Below, piece after piece: positions 973-7,207 of a DNA stretch of 64,000 nucleotides. The notes beneath the pieces were generated by a model. That model made no database searches and had not been told where the DNA came from. It saw only the letters and a list, made by a program, of their open reading frames with translations. A program made the translations under genes and the position numbers. Each line of letters opens with the position of its first letter. Positions within the stretch are counted from its first letter, which is position 1. Source of the stretch: a phage; the NCBI GenBank assembly GCA_028522875.1, contig GCA_028522875.1_3659.1; one strand, 5' to 3'.

Positions 973-2256
973 TCATTCAAGCACCTCCCAAGTATCTGGG
1001 TTAACATTTCGGACGCAGATACCGACAGGGAATTGGTAGTTGTTGTCTTCTGTCCTTGCTTGGTATTTGAAGGTGACAAACTTGCCGATCATTTCCTGCA
1101 TCCTGTCATAGCTACGCTCCTCGTGCGTGCCTTTCATCTTCATTTTAACAACAATACCTTCCTTGTCAACGCAGATAAGAACACCTTCATCATTCTTATC
1201 TTTCTCAACGTCAATAACTTTCACCTCTGCGTCGTTGAACTTTTTCCATTTCAATGCTTCAGATGTTCGCTGACCGTACTCGTATTTACCGCAGAAATTA
1301 CGCATGATAGTACCTTCATATCCTTCGGACATGAATATACCAACAGATTCTTCGCAATGATCAACTGTGTACGCAAGCTCTGCGTCAACAACCTTGATAT
1401 GGTCAAGCATCAGAGTGGTAACGGTATCCTCTGCATCCATAAGATCCTTGCAGCGTCCAGACTCTGTTTCTGGATCCCACCACACCTTGTCGCTAGGAAT
1501 ATCAAAAATGTGATACTCCAGATCGTAGCTACAGTACCCACCGTAACGCAAATCATCACGAACAGGCTCAACATCGACAGGAATATCTACCTTGTTGAAG
1601 TTTTTGTATGTTGATAAGCCTGCCTTAATTGCGGCATGACGGCGTTTTTTATCTGCCTCATAGTCTTTATCGATCTCGGCCTGAATCTCTTCCTGTGTGC
1701 GCCACCGTTTAGCAAGAGACACTATTTTCTGCAAAGGAAGACCATGAATGTATAGTTCCCCATCAAGTTGTTTAATCCCAGTGGTAGAATGGAAAGAACG
1801 AAGTTGCTCTAAAAGCTTTCCTTGAATAGGGTAGGACTTATTACCACGGGAAATAAATTTAGGCTCACCATTTTGGAAAACAACAAGCAGACGAAGGCCA
1901 TCTAACTTACGCAAGATCCAGCAGGGTAGTTTAAGTGCCTTGCCACGCTTCAGGTAGTCATGCACCAGCATGGGTAAAAGATCAACACCCTGCTCGCAAT
2001 CTTCCATGTTTTCAACATACCCCAGACGGACTTGTTTTTCCCACTTGCTGATAGCCTCAAGCTCGGCCTGTTGCTCAGCTGTAGTCTCGTTGGCACGACC
2101 TACGTTCTTAGGTGTGCATACCGTCTCTTTGTACTGCAATTTACCGTCAAGCTTGCCAAACTCTACGATAACCTTTTCGCCATCAGTGAATACTTTCCAC
2201 TGTTGGTAGCTGCCATCTTTGTTCAGTGCGTACAGTGTTGTTTTGATTTGATGCAT
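973..2256 (-). CDS. ATP-dependent DNA ligase (covalent nucleotidyltransferase superfamily)
   Basis: 427 aa; motif I KLDG (LRKLDGLRL), motif III LDGELY, motif IV EGTIMR, motif V LKWKK in canonical order. Confidence 0.7.
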   Translation of the reverse strand: MHQIKTTLYALNKDGSYQQWKVFTDGEKVIVEFGKLDGKLQYKETVCTPKNVGRANETTAEQQAELEAISKWEKQVRLGYVENMEDCEQGVDLLPMLVHDYLKRGKALKLPCWILRKLDGLRLLVVFQNGEPKFISRGNKSYPIQGKLLEQLRSFHSTTGIKQLDGELYIHGLPLQKIVSLAKRWRTQEEIQAEIDKDYEADKKRRHAAIKAGLSTYKNFNKVDIPVDVEPVRDDLRYGGYCSYDLEYHIFDIPSDKVWWDPETESGRCKDLMDAEDTVTTLMLDHIKVVDAELAYTVDHCEESVGIFMSEGYEGTIMRNFCGKYEYGQRTSEALKWKKFNDAEVKVIDVEKDKNDEGVLICVDKEGIVVKMKMKGTHEERSYDRMQEMIGKFVTFKYQARTEDNNYQFPVGICVRNVNPDTWEVLE

Positions 2257-2820: not shown

Positions 2821-2882
2821 AACTAACTACCTCACTGCATACTTTCCATAATAAGTAAAGCCGGGTAATCCCGGCTATGTTG

Positions 2883-3596
2883 TTAAATATACTCTGTTAC
2901 ATCCTTGAAGCTCGAAGGCTTCATGATCTTACCTTTGCTGTCAAGGAATATAATAACTTTATTGCCGTTGTAGAACTCCTCTTTAGCAACGAAACCTTCG
3001 TAGCGACCACCAAAACGACGCTCAAGATCTTTAATCTCCAACTCGATGAGTTGTTCAGCAGGCATATCTGCACTGGCACCGTGTGAATACCGTAGATGGT
3101 TGATCCGTGCAAACTTACTGTCATTAGATTTGAGAACCTTCCGCATCATCCCACACACATCGCCGCGAAGCTGGAACAGCAAAGCTGTTGACAACTCCGC
3201 TAAGCGGTAAGCTGACGCTCTTTGCTTGGATGTGTTTTTCGCAGCGATCAGTGTATCATAGAACTCACCGATCTTGAACTTAAGACCTCGTGGATTATCA
3301 AACAGGTTTGACCACTTTTCGTGATTGTCATTAACAAGATAAGCTGCATAACTTGTGACAACGTGAAGATCGCAGGCCTCTTTTAGCAGGTGATCTCCAC
3401 CATCACCTTTCTCCAGCTCTTCCAAAACCTCATTGAACTCTTCCTCAATGAAGCTAAGCTGTAATTCGAATGGTGTGTATGATTTTTTCACTTTAGCTGC
3501 CACACGGTTCCAGTTTTCCACCCAGTTGGCAGACCAAAGGTAGTTTTCAGGCTGAGACAGTTTTTCCAGGTTGTCGATCAGTTTAGTATTCAGCAT
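2883..3596 (-). CDS. putative MazG-like nucleotide pyrophosphohydrolase domain protein
   Basis: 237 aa; N-terminal acidic helix pattern EEEFNEVLEELEKGD...LLKEACDL resembles the EExxE...E...D metal-binding motif of all-alpha NTP pyrophosphatases; assignment tentative. Confidence 0.35.
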   Translation of the reverse strand: MLNTKLIDNLEKLSQPENYLWSANWVENWNRVAAKVKKSYTPFELQLSFIEEEFNEVLEELEKGDGGDHLLKEACDLHVVTSYAAYLVNDNHEKWSNLFDNPRGLKFKIGEFYDTLIAAKNTSKQRASAYRLAELSTALLFQLRGDVCGMMRKVLKSNDSKFARINHLRYSHGASADMPAEQLIELEIKDLERRFGGRYEGFVAKEEFYNGNKVIIFLDSKGKIMKPSSFKDVTEYI

Positions 3597-3609
3597 TAAA
3601 GGTCTCCTT

Positions 3610-4371
3610 TTAAAGTTCCATAAAGTTTTCTACAGTTTCAATAAATGCTTTATCAGAGAAAGCGTCAACAGCACCGTTAAACCATACAGGGATCCCGCGA
3701 TCCTCATATTGATAAAGGTCGCTACGTGAAATGCCACTTCCATCTGCACTCTGCGAGTCATACTTGTTTACAATCAGCAGTTTTGTGCCTTTACAAGTAG
3801 CAGGAAACAATTCCCAGTTAAAATTAATAACTGTGTTAGAACAACCTACCAGGATCACCATATCATTGCTTGTGAGAGATGTCAACAGTTCATACATGTC
3901 TGTATACTTAGGAGCAACCTCACCGAAGAACACCACATTGGGCTTAACCCAGGTATACTTGCCTGTATCTACCTCCGTGTATCCGATATTTTTAATTACA
4001 TCATTACCTTCAGCATCTTCGTAGGTGATTTCAGGCAAATACCCGTGGACATGTAAAATATCTTCATGTTTTACACCAGCACGCTCCAGCAAATCATCTA
4101 CATTGGTGGTAAGGTTGATCACACGACCAGACCAGCGGGAATACCACTCAGCGATCCGAAGATGTGCAAGGTTAGGATCAACACTGCCCAGAGCTACACG
4201 ACGTGCATTGTAAAAGTCATGCACCTTATAGTAGTTCTTGGCAAAGGTGTGGATGTTGCACACCTCATCGATGCTGAAATTCTCCCACATTGCAGTGCTA
4301 CCAGATCGGAAAGTGGGAATACCAGATTCAGCGCTCAAACCAGCACCGGAGATAATAATCAGTCGTCGCAT
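3610..4371 (-). CDS. Sir2-family (sirtuin-like) NAD-dependent deacylase / ADP-ribosyltransferase homolog
   Basis: 253 aa; GAGLSAESGIPTFRSG (Sir2 GAGISxxSGIPxFR NAD-binding motif), TTNVDDLLERAG, catalytic-His context LHVHG, FFGE, LVGCS; no Zn-ribbon CxxC pairs seen. Confidence 0.65.
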   Translation of the reverse strand: MRRLIIISGAGLSAESGIPTFRSGSTAMWENFSIDEVCNIHTFAKNYYKVHDFYNARRVALGSVDPNLAHLRIAEWYSRWSGRVINLTTNVDDLLERAGVKHEDILHVHGYLPEITYEDAEGNDVIKNIGYTEVDTGKYTWVKPNVVFFGEVAPKYTDMYELLTSLTSNDMVILVGCSNTVINFNWELFPATCKGTKLLIVNKYDSQSADGSGISRSDLYQYEDRGIPVWFNGAVDAFSDKAFIETVENFMEL

Positions 4372-4379
4372 AAGTGTCC

Positions 4380-4730
4380 TCAGTAGATGTTTTGTTTAAT
4401 CTCTATTCCAAACTTCTTGAATGAGTCAGCAGCAAGCATAAATTTACGAGCTGCCGATGGATTAGAAGTATGCACGAAAATAACCACGTTGTCAATAAGT
4501 GGTGGCTTTCCGAATACAAGTTTCTCCTCTAGCGCAGAGAAGCAGTCGTACCCTTCAAGCACTTCACCTAGATCATTGTCAAAATACCACTCAGATACGC
4601 GTCTGTAGAGCTTTCTCTTATCATTAAGAAAATCCATAAACTCAGAAGAATTCTTTAGCCACAGAGCGTCTGGGAGTCCATAATCTGACGGATCTCTAAA
4701 ATCATCAAGCCACACAATCCACTTCTTCAT
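4380..4730 (-). CDS. hypothetical protein (116 aa)
   Basis: ORF with 4-nt overlap with upstream RNA-ligase-like gene (translational coupling); N-terminus MKKWIVWLDDFRDP; no confident family. Confidence 0.3.
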   Translation of the reverse strand: MKKWIVWLDDFRDPSDYGLPDALWLKNSSEFMDFLNDKRKLYRRVSEWYFDNDLGEVLEGYDCFSALEEKLVFGKPPLIDNVVIFVHTSNPSAARKFMLAADSFKKFGIEIKQNIY

Positions 4731-5662
4731 TGCATATAGTCCTCGTTGTGGAAATAGTAGTCCAGTATCTCACGACGCTCCTGCTCTAATAAGCAATTCC
4801 ACACATCTTCTGTATAGTTGCTACGAATAAATTTTACCATACCGTAAAACTCTTCGTCAACACGTTTAAAGATATCATCATCCCAAATCTTCCAAGCTTT
4901 ACCCCTCATTACTGCCTTCCGTGCCAGATAGTATGGAGACTTGATCTTCAGCTGCAGATCATAAGGGTAGTAAGGCTTACGAATCATATACCCTTCACCT
5001 CTTGTTTCTGCAGCTAATTCTTTTGCATAGCTGAACGGAATTTCACGCACAGTGTGAGGACGTTTTGCACCAAGGTATTTGGCAATCCCATCTAAAGCTG
5101 CTTCTGGTAGCATTATTCCAGAATCATTATATCTGCAACCTATCAAATATGCGCCATGATCTTCCTGAACAATATGCGGATCTGAAGGGTGGCAAATTTC
5201 AAACATGAATGTCATGTTTTCATTGCCCATAACCTTCTTGATAAGATCTAAATTACCACATTGCTCCCTGATGGTTTCTTTTGCGAGGTTACAATATGGG
5301 GAATCAAGAGACCCGGTTGTTGAGAACAATAGTTCACCTTTATGAGATGATACCACACCGAGGAATCCGTTCTTTTTCTCTACCGCAGTAACAAGTTTAC
5401 TGTCCGGTAGGTTGGTGGAGTTTTCTCCTAAGTTGAATACTTTTGTGAAAGGCCATGCCACAACATTCCCCTCATTACCAACAACAATACCTCGGCACTC
5501 CAGTAAACGCGGAGACAAATGCCACAGATTGTTGTAGAATACTTTTCTGGCATATTTATAGATCTTTAATCCAAGATCTGGATAATACCGACTGGTTACA
5601 AGACCTTTGTCTACTAGGTCATCTGCATTAAAATACTTCATCATACGTTCCTCATTTGTCAT
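4727..5662 (-). CDS. RNA ligase-like nucleotidyltransferase (putative RNA sealing enzyme)
   Basis: 311 aa; KxNG motif I (EKKNGFLGVV), motif IV EGYMIRKP, motif V LKIKSP; size and context favour RNA ligase over DNA ligase but not proven. Confidence 0.5.
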   Translation of the reverse strand: MTNEERMMKYFNADDLVDKGLVTSRYYPDLGLKIYKYARKVFYNNLWHLSPRLLECRGIVVGNEGNVVAWPFTKVFNLGENSTNLPDSKLVTAVEKKNGFLGVVSSHKGELLFSTTGSLDSPYCNLAKETIREQCGNLDLIKKVMGNENMTFMFEICHPSDPHIVQEDHGAYLIGCRYNDSGIMLPEAALDGIAKYLGAKRPHTVREIPFSYAKELAAETRGEGYMIRKPYYPYDLQLKIKSPYYLARKAVMRGKAWKIWDDDIFKRVDEEFYGMVKFIRSNYTEDVWNCLLEQERREILDYYFHNEDYMQ

Positions 5663-5705
5663 TTTGTCAGTCTATCCTTCCACACAAATAACCTAGTGTC
5701 AACAC

Positions 5706-5734
5706 TTGAAATTAACAAAACAGTTAGGTATACT
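5706..5734 (+). promoter_or_regulatory. sigma70-like promoter (TTGAAA-N17-TATACT) for kinase/phosphoesterase operon
   Basis: -35 TTGAAA at 5706-5711, 17-nt spacer, -10 TATACT at 5729-5734; located in divergent intergenic region. Confidence 0.5.
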
Positions 5735-5762
5735 ATCATTAAAATTAAAACGGAGGATTGCT

Positions 5763-6173
5763 ATGTCTAAAATGCTATATATCGTGCGTGGTCTGCCAGG
5801 GTCTGGCAAATCAACACTGGCAAATGCGCTATCTTTAGAAGGTCTGTATCCACATTTTGAGAATGACATGTTTTGGTATGACGATGACGGCAATTACAAC
5901 TGGGATGCAAGTAAAGTAACACTCGCAGCAAAATGGTGCAAAGATAACGTAGAAGATATGATGCGTATGGGATACGACCGTATCGTGGTAAGTAATACGT
6001 TTACAAAAGAAAAACATGTGCAGGGATATGTTGACATGGCAATCAGTCATGGGTATAGTTATACCGTAATCGTGGTTGAAAACCGCCACGGTAATAAAAG
6101 CATTCATGATGTTCCAGACAAGGTTGTGGATCGTATGGAACGCCAGCTTAAAAACTGCATTAAACTTAAATGA
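5763..6173 (+). CDS. P-loop polynucleotide 5'-kinase-like protein
   Basis: Start chosen at ATG 5763 behind GGAGGA RBS (ORF-track start 5706 lacks RBS); Walker A IVRGLPGSGKSTLA resembles kinase domain of T4 Pnk-type enzymes. Confidence 0.6.
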   Translation: MSKMLYIVRGLPGSGKSTLANALSLEGLYPHFENDMFWYDDDGNYNWDASKVTLAAKWCKDNVEDMMRMGYDRIVVSNTFTKEKHVQGYVDMAISHGYSYTVIVVENRHGNKSIHDVPDKVVDRMERQLKNCIKLK

Positions 6174-6180
6174 GGAATGT

Positions 6181-6735
6181 ATGAAATACTTTGTAACAAG
6201 CGATACGCACTTTCTCCACCAGCGGGTCATGGAGTTTGATTCATGTCAAAAACACAGATCTCAATATGATCACAATCTTGACAGTATGAATGCGGGAATC
6301 ATCACCGAGTGGAACTCCGTTGTGTCACCTGCAGACACTGTGTTCCACCTGGGAGATATTGCGTGCACTAATGATAAGAATATCAACAACTTACTTCCAG
6401 ATATTCTAAATATGTTGAACGGACATATTATTCTTGTTCGTGGCAACCATGACACAAGGACGACTGTCAGAATTATGAAAGAGTTCGGTCATGAGGTTGT
6501 AGATTATTACGAGCTTCGCCACAACAAGAATTTGATCTGTATGAGCCATTACCAGTTTGCAAAGTGGAACAGAAAGCCTCACGGATCAGTCCAACTGTTC
6601 GGTCATGCTCACGGAACCACACAACAGTTGTTTGGCAGGCAGCTTGATGTCGGTTGGGATGTGTGGGGGAGACTCTTACCATTAGAAGAGGCATACCGTA
6701 TTGCAATGAGTTTTGATATTGACAGCAGGGAGTAA
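6181..6735 (+). CDS. calcineurin-like metallophosphoesterase
   Basis: Start at ATG 6181 behind GAGGAA RBS; motifs SDTHF (DxH), GDIA, VRGNHDT (GNHD), GHAHG in canonical order. Confidence 0.65.
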   Translation: MKYFVTSDTHFLHQRVMEFDSCQKHRSQYDHNLDSMNAGIITEWNSVVSPADTVFHLGDIACTNDKNINNLLPDILNMLNGHIILVRGNHDTRTTVRIMKEFGHEVVDYYELRHNKNLICMSHYQFAKWNRKPHGSVQLFGHAHGTTQQLFGRQLDVGWDVWGRLLPLEEAYRIAMSFDIDSRE

Positions 6736-6748
6736 TCCCTGCTATTTT
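6724..6748 (+). terminator. intrinsic terminator (8-bp stem, GTAA loop, T-run)
   Basis: AGCAGGGA-GTAA-TCCCTGCT followed by ATTTT; stop codon of phosphoesterase lies in the loop. Confidence 0.55.
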
Positions 6749-6782
6749 AAAGAAAATTGCCACACAAGGAGAATCAGGAGAT

Positions 6783-7133
6783 ATGAAAGATGGGGATAAG
6801 CTGCTATATCTTAAAGTCCCCCTTGAAATACTATCTATGTCAAAAGTTTTGAATGACACAACTGGGGAGGTTGTTGTTCTTGACTTGTATGACAAGATTG
6901 TATACTGCTACCTGCACAACTGGTATAAGCTTGGAGGAAATTCACGCTTCACACCAAGCACAAGGAAAATTGCAGCAGATGTTGGGATAAAGAAAACAAA
7001 AGCAGCAGCGTGCGTTAAAACTTTAGAATGTGCAGGAGTGGTTGAAACATCCACACAAGGGAGAGGTAAAAGATGCACATTTTCCAAAGTTTTGCCACCA
7101 GAAGAAGTTATTCGAATGTCAACAACTGGTTAG
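6783..7133 (+). CDS. putative helix-turn-helix DNA-binding protein
   Basis: 116 aa; AGGAG RBS; segment STRKIAADVGIKKTKAAACVKTLECAGVVE resembles HTH/winged-helix recognition region; lies directly upstream of palindrome array. Confidence 0.35.
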   Translation: MKDGDKLLYLKVPLEILSMSKVLNDTTGEVVVLDLYDKIVYCYLHNWYKLGGNSRFTPSTRKIAADVGIKKTKAAACVKTLECAGVVETSTQGRGKRCTFSKVLPPEEVIRMSTTG

Positions 7134-7207
7134 ACCAGTAAAAACTTAAATATCTGTACTATAAGGGTTTGTATGTTTTATGTTCACCATGGAACAGAAA
7201 CTATTAA

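What the first reader, a model, noticed from the sequence alone, without database searches (positions are those of the whole stretch)
4727..6735. Candidate tRNA healing-and-sealing module: RNA-ligase-like gene divergent from a Pnk-like kinase and a metallophosphoesterase, next to the tRNA cluster
A KxNG/EGxxxK ligase-like ORF on the minus strand faces a plus-strand operon encoding a P-loop kinase (IVRGLPGSGKST, like the T4 Pnk kinase domain) and a calcineurin-type phosphoesterase (DxH, GDxx, GNHD, GHxH). In T4, Pnkp plus Rnl1 repair tRNAs cut by host anticodon nucleases. Here the 3'-phosphatase role would be filled by a metallophosphoesterase rather than a HAD domain, as in bacterial Pnkp, but as separate phage polypeptides. 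The operon has its own TTGAAA-N17-TATACT promoter and a tight terminator.
Basis: partly seen in the sequence, partly recalled or inferred. Interest (0 to 1): 0.7.

Follow-up and report, generated by a model that had tools for sequence, protein, structure and literature searches.

The report
Phage RNA break-repair gene cluster
This stretch of an rV5-like E. coli phage encodes an RNA ligase, a small RNA-end kinase and a metal-dependent phosphoesterase that most likely re-join RNAs (probably tRNAs) cut by bacterial defence nucleases; the genes are real and tightly linked in many phages, but the cluster is already annotated and was already predicted to be an RNA-repair system, so it is sound rather than new.

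Summary
Window 4727-6735 holds a T4 Rnl1-family RNA ligase on the minus strand. It faces a plus-strand pair: a 136-aa Pnk-like P-loop kinase and a 184-aa binuclear metallophosphoesterase (MPE). All catalytic motifs are intact.

The window is 98-99% identical to rV5-like Vequintavirus phages. Public records already name these genes RNA ligase, polynucleotide kinase and phosphoesterase. Iyer et al. 2022 (PMC9503650) already described this phage-V5 neighbourhood as a predicted RNA-end clean-up and ligation system.

My addition is a reciprocal synteny analysis.
- Of 80 diverged viral loci with this ligase, 72 carry the kinase and 62 the MPE, and 12 have kinase-ligase fusions. Sir2 and cREC are confined to the rV5 group.
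- The kinase-MPE pair also accompanies Rnl2-type ligases.

So ligase, kinase and MPE form the conserved healing-and-sealing core.

The MPE belongs to the uncharacterised aq_1665 (1XM7) subfamily, not the bacterial Pnkp/lambda-phosphatase type. The ligase lacks T4's tRNA-specificity domain. No activity has been tested.

Verdict: real and mechanistically plausible, but already known as a prediction. Interest is modest.

The parts
4727..5662 (-). Rnl1-family ATP-dependent RNA ligase. The ORF is 311 aa; the likely start is M7 at 5644, giving 305 aa.
   Evidence: PF09511 E 9e-15 and phrog_562 E 1e-65. hhalign against T4 Rnl1 gives probability 97.4% and E 1e-11 over the whole nucleotidyltransferase domain. 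K96, E155, E223/G224 and K239/K241 are invariant in 44 homologues. The AF2 model has pLDDT 90, and its top PDB matches are Trl1-LIG and T4 Rnl1.
5706..5734 (+). Sigma-70-like promoter candidate (TTGAAA-N17-TATACT) for the kinase-MPE pair.
   Evidence: Scanner match of 10/12. The region is enriched in such matches, so function is not shown.
5763..6173 (+). Stand-alone 136-aa P-loop kinase of the Pnk/AAA_33 type, the predicted RNA 5'-OH kinase.
   Evidence: AAA_33 E 2e-10 and phrog_505 'polynucleotide kinase' E 1e-9. hhalign against the T4 Pnk kinase domain gives probability 95.9% and E 5e-9, with D35 aligned to T4 D35. The full-length PDB matches of the profile are T4 Pnk, CthPnk, Pnkp1 and PSTK; the top-scoring hit, RazKIN, aligns confidently only over the P-loop. 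The kinase is fused to the ligase in 12 loci.
6181..6735 (+). 184-aa binuclear metallophosphoesterase of the aq_1665-like subfamily, the predicted 2',3'-cyclic-phosphate / 3'-phosphate end-healing enzyme.
   Evidence: Metallophos_2/Metallophos hits and phrog_547 E 2e-51. The invariant residues D8, H10, D59, N89, H90, H123, H142 and H144 form a complete metal site. The profile hits PDB 1xm7 at E 6e-28. The AF2 model has pLDDT 95. The MPE lies within 10 kb of the ligase in 62 of 80 loci and within 8 kb of the kinase in 58 of 79 loci.
6724..6743 (+). Hairpin overlapping the MPE stop codon, followed by AUUUUAAAG; a possible weak intrinsic terminator.
   Evidence: Energy -14.6 kcal/mol, z = -4.15. 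The terminator scanner did not call it because the U tract is short.
4380..4730 (-). cREC (cyclic-phosphate-processing receiver-like) protein of 116 aa. Its start overlaps the ligase stop by 4 bases.
   Evidence: PF20274 E 9e-14 and phrog_1479 E 5e-33. The family was predicted to open cyclic phosphates (PMC7824862, PMC9503650). In rV5-group relatives it lies between the ligase and the kinase.
3610..4371 (-). Sir2-family protein of 253 aa with no Zn-binding cysteine pairs. It is an accessory gene confined to the rV5 group.
   Evidence: PF02146 E 5e-28 and phrog_2162 E 1e-108. Iyer et al. 2022 proposed it as a KptA/Tpt1-like remover of 2'-phosphate. It is present in only 11 of 80 ligase loci.
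2883..3596 (-). MazG-like nucleotide pyrophosphohydrolase, the last gene of the minus-strand unit.
   Evidence: phrog_671 E 6e-22. It is listed as part of the V5-type neighbourhood in PMC9503650. It is present in 13 of 80 loci.
2859..2876 (.). GC-rich palindromic hairpin just downstream of the MazG-like gene; terminator-like on both strands.
   Evidence: Called by the terminator scanner on both strands.
9649..10461 (+). Phage tRNA cluster, given as context. It holds Arg-UCU, Tyr, Ser, an aberrant Lys-UUU-like gene, Thr, Met/Ile-CAU and Pro.
   Evidence: ARAGORN, Rfam and the GenBank annotation of Bas49. tRNA genes lie within 10 kb of the ligase in 42 of 80 related loci.

Best explanation
This is a phage RNA healing-and-sealing system split into separate small proteins. 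Host or toxin ribonucleases that work without metals leave a 2',3'-cyclic phosphate and a 5'-OH.

Proposed steps:
1. The 136-aa kinase transfers a phosphate from an NTP to the 5'-OH.
2. The metallophosphoesterase removes the cyclic phosphate or 3'-phosphate to give a 3'-OH. In the rV5 group, cREC may help by opening the cycle.
3. The Rnl1-family ligase adenylylates itself on Lys96, activates the 5'-phosphate and seals the break.

The most likely substrates are tRNA anticodon loops cut by anticodon nucleases, so the module would act as a counter-defence, as T4 Pnkp plus Rnl1 do against PrrC.

Shown here: family membership, intact catalytic residues, gene linkage and gene fusions. Inferred: every enzymatic activity, the division of labour at the 3' end, tRNA as the substrate, and the counter-defence role.
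For: Family and residues:
- The ligase is in PF09511 and phrog_562.
- It aligns with T4 Rnl1 over residues 47-249. From my recollection of Wang et al. 2003 (not checked here), the essential T4 residues are R54, K75, F77, K99, G102, E159, E227, G228, K240 and K242. All have identical counterparts, and these are invariant in 44 homologues.
- Its fold matches the tRNA ligases Trl1-LIG and T4 Rnl1 at E about 1e-12.
- The kinase aligns with the T4 Pnk kinase domain (probability 95.9%), with the P-loop and Asp35 conserved. I take Asp35 to be the catalytic base from recollection.
- The full-length PDB profile hits of the kinase are RNA or polynucleotide kinases: Pnkp1, T4 Pnk, CthPnk and PSTK. The top-scoring hit, RazKIN, aligns confidently only over the P-loop. 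RazKIN's activity is documented in PMC11571804.
- The MPE has a complete binuclear metal site.
- There is a precedent for an MPE healing RNA 3' ends: the CthPnkp phosphatase domain and lambda phosphatase hydrolyse 2',3'-cyclic phosphates (PMC2190708, abstract seen).

Linkage:
- Ligase-anchored: of 80 viral loci with 35-89% ligase identity, 72 have the kinase and 62 the MPE within 10 kb. Of 44 non-redundant clusters, 38 have the kinase, 38 the MPE and 34 both.
- Twelve loci encode kinase-ligase fusion proteins. phrog_8238 likewise matches the kinase at its N end and the ligase at its C end.
- Kinase-anchored: of 79 loci, 58 have the MPE, 21 an Rnl1-type ligase and 23 an Rnl2-type ligase. The healing pair therefore travels with two different RNA ligase families.
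- MPE-anchored: of 80 loci, 51 have an RNA ligase and 57 an AAA_33 kinase.
- tRNA genes lie within 10 kb in 42 of 80 ligase loci.

An independent published prediction covers this same neighbourhood in phage V5 (PMC9503650).
Against: - No activity has been measured for any of these proteins, and I found no experimental paper on them.
- The MPE's closest relatives are of unknown function (1xm7) or act on other substrates (Mre11, LpxH, GpdQ). It is not close to the Pnkp/lambda-phosphatase clade.
- More distant members of the MPE family sit in phage replication regions with no kinase or ligase nearby.
- In one 136-kb relative, the kinase and the MPE lie about 80 kb apart with no ligase near either.
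- The ligase lacks a match to T4 Rnl1's C-terminal domain. T4's K119 is an invariant Thr here.
- The kinase lacks a counterpart of T4 Arg38.
- The presence of cREC and Sir2 suggests the 3'-end chemistry may differ from the simple T4 scheme.
Confidence: 0.65

Rival explanations
1. A Trl1/Tpt1-like route, as proposed by Iyer et al. 2022. cREC opens the cyclic phosphate to a 2'-phosphate with a 3'-OH. The kinase phosphorylates the 5' end. The ligase seals a junction that still carries the 2'-phosphate. Sir2 then transfers that phosphate to NAD+, as KptA/Tpt1 does. The MPE and the MazG-like enzyme clean up the ADP-ribose cyclic-phosphate by-product rather than the RNA end.
For: - cREC, Sir2 and the MazG-like gene follow the ligase directly on the minus strand, with a terminator-like hairpin just downstream.
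- In rV5-group relatives cREC lies between the ligase and the kinase.
- The predicted ligase fold matches fungal Trl1-LIG as well as it matches T4 Rnl1.
- The proposal is published for this neighbourhood.
Against: - Sir2 and cREC occur in only 11 and 10 of 80 ligase loci (4 and 3 of 44 clusters), while the kinase and the MPE occur in 72 and 62. The conserved system therefore works without Sir2 or cREC.
- The MPE is linked to the ligase and kinase in lineages that have no sirtuin, so it cannot be merely an ADP-ribose clean-up enzyme there.
- No sirtuin has been shown to remove RNA 2'-phosphate.
- cREC is experimentally uncharacterised.
Confidence: 0.2
2. The kinase and the MPE process DNA ends or free nucleotides, and are not RNA-end healers. 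Examples would be healing 5'-OH/3'-phosphate DNA breaks for the nearby ATP-dependent DNA ligase, or degrading cyclic-nucleotide immune signals.
For: - An ATP-dependent DNA ligase lies 2.5 kb away (973-2256) and is found within 10 kb in 29 of 80 ligase loci.
- Polynucleotide kinases of this type can also phosphorylate DNA; MciKIN does so (PMC11571804).
- MPE relatives include the DNA nucleases Mre11 and P. putida MPE, and the cyclic-nucleotide phosphodiesterase Rv0805.
- NCBIfam gives a weak hit to the ligase-associated PdeM (E 2.5e-4).
Against: - The consistent partners are RNA ligases of two families, Rnl1 and Rnl2, not the DNA ligase. The DNA ligase was found in only 5 of 79 kinase-anchored loci, though only the window's own DNA ligase was used as the query, so divergent DNA ligases could have been missed.
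- The kinase is physically fused to the RNA ligase in 12 loci.
- The PdeM hit is far below its cut-off (20.5 against 150 bits).
Confidence: 0.08
3. The ligase serves mainly as a tail-fibre attachment factor, which is the second activity of T4 gp63 and the basis of the GenBank name. Alternatively, the set matures the phage's own RNAs, such as the aberrant tRNA-Lys-like gene, rather than repairing damage.
For: - Many records call the gene 'RNA ligase and tail attachment protein'.
- A tRNA cluster with one structurally aberrant tRNA lies 2.9 kb away.
Against: - The tail-attachment name is carried over from T4 by homology alone.
- Conserved linkage and fusion to end-processing enzymes has no rationale for a morphogenetic role.
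- The aberrant tRNA folds as a complete cloverleaf whose extra arm is in the variable region, not in the anticodon loop.
- I found no sign of a splicing endonuclease among the proteins scanned.
Confidence: 0.05

Closest known systems
T4 Pnkp (PseT) plus Rnl1 (gp63) tRNA repair pathway that counters the PrrC anticodon nuclease
   Same: - The ligase is in the same family (PF09511), and the residues I recall as essential in the T4 nucleotidyltransferase domain are nearly all conserved, with near-identical spacing.
- The kinase has the same P-loop fold, with the P-loop and Asp35 aligned.
- The overall logic is the same: a 5' kinase, a 3' phosphoesterase and a ligase encoded by a large lytic coliphage.
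   Different: - The kinase is a stand-alone 136-aa protein with no HAD (DxDxT) phosphatase domain. No T4-type phosphatase is found anywhere in the 64-kb window.
- The 3' end-healing candidate is a metallophosphoesterase.
- The ligase is about 65 aa shorter and lacks a match to T4's C-terminal domain (255-374). It scores far below the NCBIfam equivalog cut-off (37.6 against 242 bits).
- T4 K119 is Thr here, and T4 Pnk R38 is Trp/Phe here.
Bacterial Pnkp/Hen1 RNA repair (Clostridium thermocellum Pnkp: kinase, metallophosphoesterase and ligase domains in one polypeptide)
   Same: - The same three chemistries are present, including a binuclear metallophosphoesterase as the 3' healer.
- The kinase profile hits the CthPnk and Pnkp1 kinase domains.
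- CthPnkp's MPE domain is a proven 2',3'-cyclic phosphodiesterase and phosphatase (PMC2190708).
   Different: - There are three separate proteins, and in this phage they sit on two strands.
- The MPE belongs to the aq_1665 (1xm7) subfamily. It lacks the GDxxDR arginine and shows no detectable closeness to the lambda-phosphatase/Pnkp clade.
- The ligase is Rnl1-type, not the Pnkp-type ligase domain.
- No methyltransferase or Hen1 is annotated beside the genes in the Bas49 record; I ran no Hen1-specific search.
Sirtuin-centred phage RNA-repair neighbourhood 'type 2' of Iyer, Burroughs, Anantharaman and Aravind 2022 (Viruses 14:1977), prototyped by Escherichia phage V5 and Proteus phage Mydo
   Same: - It is the same locus. 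The window is 98% identical to phage V5.
- It contains every listed component: sirtuin, T4-like tRNA ligase, cREC, nucleotide kinase, MazG-like protein and calcineurin-like phosphoesterase.
   Different: - That paper centres the system on the sirtuin and calls the phosphoesterase occasional.
- The synteny counts here show the reverse. Kinase and MPE are the conserved partners of the ligase across diverged phages, while Sir2, cREC and MazG are a lineage-specific addition.
Fungal and Mucorales tRNA splicing enzymes (Trl1 LIG-KIN-CPD; stand-alone MciKIN/RazKIN kinases)
   Same: - The predicted ligase fold matches Trl1-LIG as well as it matches T4 Rnl1.
- A stand-alone RNA 5'-OH kinase (RazKIN, 9d8a) is the best-scoring PDB hit of the kinase profile.
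- Mucorales show that split ligase and kinase proteins can form a working pathway.
   Different: - No 2H cyclic phosphodiesterase or Tpt1 was identified.
- The RazKIN match is confident only over the P-loop.
- Whether the ligase needs a 2'-phosphate, and whether the kinase prefers GTP, is unknown.

Membership tests
Rnl1 (T4 RnlA-type) RNA ligase, Pfam PF09511 | Profile match above the curated Pfam threshold | tested here: met
   55.5 bits against a cut-off of 28.3, E 9e-15, covering profile positions 1-227 of 227. phrog_562 E 1e-65.
Rnl1 (T4 RnlA-type) RNA ligase, Pfam PF09511 | Nucleotidyltransferase motifs I (KxxG lysine nucleophile), III, IV and V, plus the Rnl1-specific upstream residues (T4 R54, K75, F77) | tested here: met
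   hhalign and BLASTP against T4 Rnl1 give these pairs: R57=R54, K74=K75, F76=F77, K96=K99, G99=G102, E155=E159, E223/G224=E227/G228, K239/K241=K240/K242. All are invariant in 44 homologues. That these T4 residues are essential is from my recollection of Wang et al. 2003, not checked here.
Rnl1 (T4 RnlA-type) RNA ligase, Pfam PF09511 | T4 Lys119 equivalent | tested here: not met
   It aligns with Thr116 of an invariant TTG motif.
Rnl1 (T4 RnlA-type) RNA ligase, Pfam PF09511 | C-terminal domain (T4 residues 255-374), which I recall confers tRNA specificity, and equivalog status to T4 RnlA | tested here: not met
   The hhalign alignment stops at T4 residue 249. Only about 65 residues follow motif V, and they are predicted as five short helices. 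TIGR02308 scores 37.6 bits against an equivalog cut-off of 242.
Rnl1 (T4 RnlA-type) RNA ligase, Pfam PF09511 | ATP-dependent self-adenylylation and sealing of 3'-OH/5'-phosphate RNA ends | not testable with these tools
   This needs a biochemical assay.
T4-type polynucleotide 5'-kinase (Pnk kinase domain, AAA_33) | P-loop GxxGxGK(S/T) and a catalytic Asp about 20 residues downstream (T4 D35) | tested here: met
   G10-T18 and D35 are invariant in 43 homologues. D35 aligns with T4 D35 (hhalign probability 95.9%, E 5e-9). That D35 is the catalytic base is from recollection.
T4-type polynucleotide 5'-kinase (Pnk kinase domain, AAA_33) | Substrate-phosphate-binding Arg38 and lid Arg126 of T4 Pnk | tested here: inconclusive
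   T4 R38 aligns with Trp38 (Phe in most homologues). The invariant R108 of the ENRHG motif aligns with T4 R122, and the non-conserved K112 aligns with R126. The alignment is loose in this region.
T4-type polynucleotide 5'-kinase (Pnk kinase domain, AAA_33) | C-terminal HAD (DxDxT) 3'-phosphatase domain fused to the kinase | tested here: not met
   The protein is only 136 aa. phmmer with the T4 Pnkp phosphatase domain finds nothing in the window or in the 80 ligase loci.
Bacterial Pnkp (kinase-MPE-ligase) RNA repair enzyme | Binuclear metallophosphoesterase with all metal ligands | tested here: met
   D8, H10, D59, N89, H90, H123, H142 and H144 are invariant in 43 homologues.
Bacterial Pnkp (kinase-MPE-ligase) RNA repair enzyme | MPE of the lambda-phosphatase-like clade (GDxxDR motif), with all three domains in one polypeptide | tested here: not met
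   There is no Asp-Arg after the GD motif. PDB profile and fold searches return 1xm7, GpdQ, YfcE, Mre11 and LpxH, and no lambda-phosphatase or Pnkp phosphatase. The proteins are separate.
Bacterial Pnkp (kinase-MPE-ligase) RNA repair enzyme | Hen1 2'-O-methyltransferase partner | not tested
   No methyltransferase is annotated beside the genes in Bas49. The small neighbouring ORFs were not profiled for Hen1.
V5-type sirtuin/cREC RNA-repair neighbourhood (Iyer et al. 2022) | Co-located sirtuin, T4-like ligase, cREC, nucleotide kinase and MazG-like protein, with or without a calcineurin-like phosphoesterase, in a V5-like phage | tested here: met
   All six are present within 2883-6735. The window is 98.0% identical to phage V5 and 99.3% to LL12. 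The definition is quoted.
Trl1/Tpt1-type 2'-phosphate pathway | 2H cyclic phosphodiesterase, a ligase that requires a 2'-phosphate, and a Tpt1/KptA phosphotransferase | not testable with these tools
   No 2H or KptA domain appeared among the proteins scanned. cREC and Sir2 are only proposed analogues. The fold search cannot separate T4-like from Trl1-like ligases.

The most novel reading that the evidence does not exclude
The aq_1665-type metallophosphoesterase would be a previously unrecognised class of RNA 3'-end-healing enzyme. With the minimal 136-aa kinase it would form a portable two-gene healing cassette. Hundreds of phages (621 cultured-phage records carry the kinase) would combine this cassette with either Rnl1- or Rnl2-type ligases.

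In the rV5 lineage the cassette would be extended by cREC and a zinc-less sirtuin that removes RNA 2'-phosphate using NAD+. That would be a new sirtuin chemistry and a phage analogue of Tpt1.
Probability: 0.3. Interest if true: 0.55.

Novelty: already known. Interest (0 to 1): 0.3.

Why it matters
tRNA-cutting defences are now known to be widespread. Examples are PrrC, RloC, PARIS, retron Eco7 and Cas13 collateral cleavage. How phages other than T4 survive them is mostly explained by phage-encoded tRNAs.

This locus suggests that many unrelated phages of Escherichia, Pseudomonas, Vibrio, Klebsiella and Acinetobacter also carry an enzymatic repair route built from parts different from T4's. If verified, four things would follow.
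- The large aq_1665-like phosphoesterase family would gain a function.
- A minimal RNA kinase would be defined.
- The published idea that cREC and a sirtuin work on RNA ends could be tested.
- Compact new enzymes for RNA end manipulation would become available.

Because rV5-like phages are in the BASEL collection (Bas49 and relatives), the genetics is directly doable. For this scan, though, the finding is a correct reading of something already annotated and already predicted, not a discovery.

Tried and rejected
- Single-sequence searches of the ligase and kinase against PDB sequences found nothing useful. Profiles and hhalign were needed.
A closer subset, A4, worked.
- Literature searches for experiments on rV5/Vequintavirinae RNA ligase, kinase or anticodon-nuclease sensitivity found none.
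- Hits to the OLD and PARIS papers were only methods sections. The gut-phage paper PMC8008677 was irrelevant.
- I considered whether the aberrant tRNA (10118-10216) has an intron that would need a ligase. I rejected this. The extra 30 nt form an arm in the variable region, the anticodon loop is intact, and nothing points to a splicing endonuclease.
- I considered whether the fold search could tell a T4-like ligase from a Trl1-like (2'-phosphate-requiring) one. It cannot, because the scores are equal.
- I looked for what replaces the MPE in kinase-ligase fusion loci. Pfam finds no phosphoesterase among the neighbours. An unannotated 230-240-aa ORF sits upstream.
- Distant MPE homologues were checked for RNA-repair neighbours and had none.

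Full report
**What is there**

The window is an rV5-like Vequintavirus genome segment. Positions 3600-7200 are 99.3% identical to Escherichia phage LL12 and 98.0% to phage V5, and 118 phage records cover at least 80% of that stretch.

At the reported coordinates there are three genes.
- An RNA-ligase ORF on the minus strand, 4727-5662. The likely start is Met7 at 5644, behind a GAGGAA ribosome-binding site. This is the start used in the Bas49/EmilHeitz GenBank record.
- A 136-aa P-loop kinase on the plus strand, 5763-6173.
- After a 7-base gap, a 184-aa metallophosphoesterase (MPE), 6181-6735.

Public records already name these genes 'RNA ligase (1 and tail attachment protein)', 'polynucleotide kinase' or 'ATPase', and 'phosphoesterase'.

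**Regulatory signals**

TTGAAA-N17-TATACT at 5706-5734 is found by the promoter scanner with 10 of 12 matches. The region has 32 such matches against 18.4 +/- 4.5 in shuffles, so this single site means little.

The hairpin overlapping the MPE stop codon (6724-6743) is significantly stable, at -14.6 kcal/mol with z = -4.15. It is followed by only four U and was not called as a terminator.

A GC-rich hairpin at 2859-2876, just downstream of the MazG-like gene, scores as terminator-like on both strands.

**Family assignment: ligase**

- The ligase matches Pfam RNA_lig_T4_1 (55.5 bits, cut-off 28.3) and PHROG 562 (E 1e-65).
- Against T4 Rnl1 itself, taken from NC_000866, BLASTP gives 25% identity over residues 9-182.
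- A 44-sequence profile aligns with T4 residues 47-249 at 97.4% probability.
- The residues I recall as essential in T4 Rnl1 (Wang et al. 2003, not checked here) are R54, K75, F77, K99, G102, E159, E227/G228 and K240/K242. All have identical counterparts that are invariant in the family. The exception is K119, which is an invariant Thr here.
- The alignment ends at motif V. The T4 C-terminal domain is not matched. I recall that this domain confers tRNA specificity (Wang et al. 2007, not checked here).
- The remaining 65 or so residues are predicted as five short helices (AF2 pLDDT 90).
- The model's best PDB matches are fungal Trl1-LIG, T4 Rnl1 and then the Rnl3 enzymes, all at E about 1e-12 and TM about 0.6. 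This places it firmly among tRNA-type ligases but cannot tell a T4-like from a 2'-phosphate-requiring mechanism.
- It is not an equivalog of T4 RnlA by NCBIfam (37.6 against 242 bits).

**Family assignment: kinase**

- The kinase matches AAA_33 and PHROG 505 'polynucleotide kinase'.
- It belongs to a very large family of stand-alone proteins of about 130 aa. More than 7,900 metagenomic relatives were found, and 621 cultured-phage records carry it.
- The family has an invariant P-loop, Asp35, an SNTF motif and an ENRHG motif.
- Its profile aligns with the T4 Pnk kinase domain (probability 95.9%, E 5e-9), placing Asp35 on T4 Asp35, which I recall is the catalytic base.
- T4 Arg38 has no counterpart, and the lid arginine assignment is ambiguous.
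- The full-length PDB matches of the profile are Pnkp1, T4 Pnk, Clostridium thermocellum Pnk and the tRNA kinase PSTK. The top-scoring hit, the Mucorales RNA 5'-OH kinase RazKIN, aligns confidently only over the P-loop (RazKIN is described in PMC11571804).

**Family assignment: MPE**

- The MPE has the complete binuclear-metal ligand set: D8, H10, D59, N89, H90, H123, H142 and H144, invariant in 43 homologues.
- Its only close relative of known structure is Aquifex aq_1665 (1XM7), a protein of unknown function. The profile E-value is 6e-28 and the fold-search E-value is 7e-8.
- The next matches are GpdQ, YfcE, Mre11, LpxH and the P. putida MPE nuclease.
- Neither lambda phosphatase nor a Pnkp phosphatase domain appears. 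The resemblance to bacterial Pnkp is therefore only at superfamily level.
- That superfamily does contain proven RNA 2',3'-cyclic phosphodiesterases (PMC2190708).

The ligase stop overlaps the start of a 116-aa cREC gene (PF20274, E 9e-14). It is followed on the same strand by a Sir2 protein (PF02146, E 5e-28, no zinc-binding cysteine pairs) and a MazG-like pyrophosphohydrolase (phrog_671).

cREC was named 'cyclic-phosphate processing Rec' and predicted to open 2',3'-cyclic phosphates (PMC7824862).

Iyer et al. [quoted passage not shown] The RNA-repair reading of this very locus is therefore already published, but only as a computational prediction. I found no experimental work on it.

**New evidence from gene neighbourhoods**

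*Starting from the ligase* (80 IMG/VR loci, 35-89% identity, 10 kb either side):
- Kinase in 72, MPE in 62, DNA ligase in 29, MazG-like in 13, Sir2 in 11, cREC in 10.
- After collapsing to 44 clusters at 70% ligase identity: kinase 38, MPE 38, both 34, Sir2 4, cREC 3.
- The usual arrangement is co-directional and within 1.5 kb. The divergent orientation in the window is a local inversion shared with its closest relative, L004.
- Twelve loci encode a single protein of about 430 aa, with this kinase fused to the N-terminus of the ligase. phrog_8238 shows the same fusion pattern.

*Starting from the kinase* (79 loci, 8 kb either side):
- MPE in 58, of which 41 lie within 1.5 kb.
- Rnl1-type ligase in 21, Rnl2-type ligase in 23, neither MPE nor ligase in 13.

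*Starting from the MPE* (80 loci):
- An RNA ligase in 51.
- An AAA_33-type kinase in 57. This counts a second kinase subfamily of about 153 aa that sits just downstream of the ligase.
- Neither in 14.

Independent look-ups from kinase homologues on 265-283-kb contigs again show kinase-MPE and kinase-Rnl1 adjacency.

The conserved unit is therefore an RNA ligase, a 5' kinase and the MPE. The kinase-MPE pair travels with two different RNA ligase families, which is what one expects of an end-healing cassette. Sir2, cREC and MazG are additions specific to the rV5 lineage.

**Limits**

- Distant MPE homologues (about 30-35% identity) sit alone in phage replication regions.
- In one 136-kb relative, the kinase and the MPE are about 80 kb apart with no ligase near either (L089, L176).
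- The loci are phylogenetically non-independent, and many contigs are truncated.
- tRNA genes lie within 10 kb of the ligase in 42 of 80 loci. This is suggestive, but no formal baseline was computed.
- No second ligase, kinase, MPE or T4-type HAD phosphatase exists elsewhere in the window.

**Mechanism**

The best-supported account (confidence about 0.65) has three steps.
1. The kinase converts 5'-OH to 5'-phosphate.
2. The MPE converts the 2',3'-cyclic phosphate or 3'-phosphate to a 3'-OH. In rV5-like phages cREC possibly opens the cycle first.
3. The Rnl1-type ligase seals the break through a Lys96-AMP intermediate.

The likely purpose is to reverse cleavage of tRNA or other RNA by host anticodon nucleases and toxin RNases.

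Homology, catalytic residues, linkage and fusion are shown. All activities, the substrate and the biological role are inferred.

The main rival (about 0.2) is the published Trl1/Tpt1-like route through a 2'-phosphate, with Sir2 as the phosphotransferase. It may operate alongside the core route in the rV5 lineage, but it cannot be the general mechanism because most ligase-kinase-MPE loci lack Sir2 and cREC. DNA-end or nucleotide processing (about 0.08) and tail-fibre attachment or phage RNA maturation (about 0.05) are poorly supported.

**Novelty and score**

The genes are annotated, and the locus has been interpreted as RNA repair in the literature, so I rate it 'already known'. Relative to experimentally characterised systems it is a distinct variant, with three differences:
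- a stand-alone minimal kinase;
- an aq_1665-type MPE instead of a HAD or lambda-phosphatase-type domain;
- a short Rnl1 without the T4 C-terminal domain.

It remains biochemically untested. Interest is 0.3. It is a correct and well-supported reading, and it would be useful as an experimental target, but it would not surprise a specialist.

Noticed in passing
window 10118-10216 (+): This is an aberrant tRNA gene. The anticodon loop reads UUUUUAA (Lys UUU), but the variable region is about 30 nt long and has its own 5-bp hairpin. ARAGORN calls it undetermined with a four-base anticodon 'atcc'. Rfam's tRNA model scores it 31 bits, just above the 29-bit threshold. The Bas49 GenBank record calls it tRNA-Lys. 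It folds as a cloverleaf plus an extra arm (z = -3.8). tRNA-Lys(UUU) is the PrrC target, so a nuclease-resistant or decoy tRNA is conceivable.
   Followed up: partly
L013:1267-1354 (-): A second unrelated phage contig carries the ligase-kinase-MPE triad and also an 88-nt tRNA with a long variable arm (type-II-like) and a UUU anticodon.
   Followed up: no
L042-L046, L048, L051, L053-L055, L057 (e.g. L053:9527-10822): These loci have kinase-ligase fusion ORFs of about 430 aa and no MPE within 10 kb. An ORF of 230-240 aa with no Pfam match lies just upstream (L053:8365-9084, L042:8280-8990) and might be a replacement phosphoesterase. L042 also has an Rnl2-type ligase with a PHA02142 OB domain.
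   Followed up: partly
L205, L214, L220, L235 (e.g. L220:7444-7917 and 9623-10108): In many MPE-Rnl1 loci the kinase is a different AAA_33 subfamily of about 153 aa with an SRPGK motif. A dual-specificity/PTP-type phosphatase (Tc-R-P, PTP-SAK 'Swiss Army Knife') sits upstream of the MPE, and sometimes an HD_4 protein is inserted. These look like richer end-processing sets.
   Followed up: partly
L089 and L176 (contig IMGVR_UViG_3300045988_163358, 136 kb): In this relative, the kinase and the MPE (54% identical to the window's) lie about 80 kb apart with no RNA ligase near either. It is a counter-example to the otherwise strong linkage.
   Followed up: no
window 3610-4371 (-): The Sir2 protein keeps the NAD-binding and catalytic motifs (GAGLSAESGIPTFR, TTNVD, HVHG). 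It has no CxxC pairs, so it lacks the usual zinc module.
   Followed up: no
window 3600-7200 against the phage database: Eighteen to 23 records named 'Campylobacter phage' (for example C15, A12a, A116) are about 98% identical to E. coli rV5-like phages. They are probably host mislabelling or contamination.
   Followed up: no
window 10299-10373 (+): ARAGORN calls the CAT-anticodon tRNA Met. The Bas49 record annotates it as tRNA-Ile reading ATA, which would require lysidine modification.
   Followed up: no
window 973-2256 (-): An ATP-dependent DNA ligase lies 2.5 kb from the RNA ligase and is found within 10 kb of it in 29 of 80 related loci. The two ligases tend to be neighbours.
   Followed up: partly
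literature: PMC4933390: Infection of Pseudomonas aeruginosa by phage PAK_P3 strongly induces the host rtcAB RNA-repair operon. Its relatives PAK_P1 and C11 carry the kinase. This is circumstantial evidence that cyclic-phosphate RNA damage occurs in such infections.
   Followed up: no
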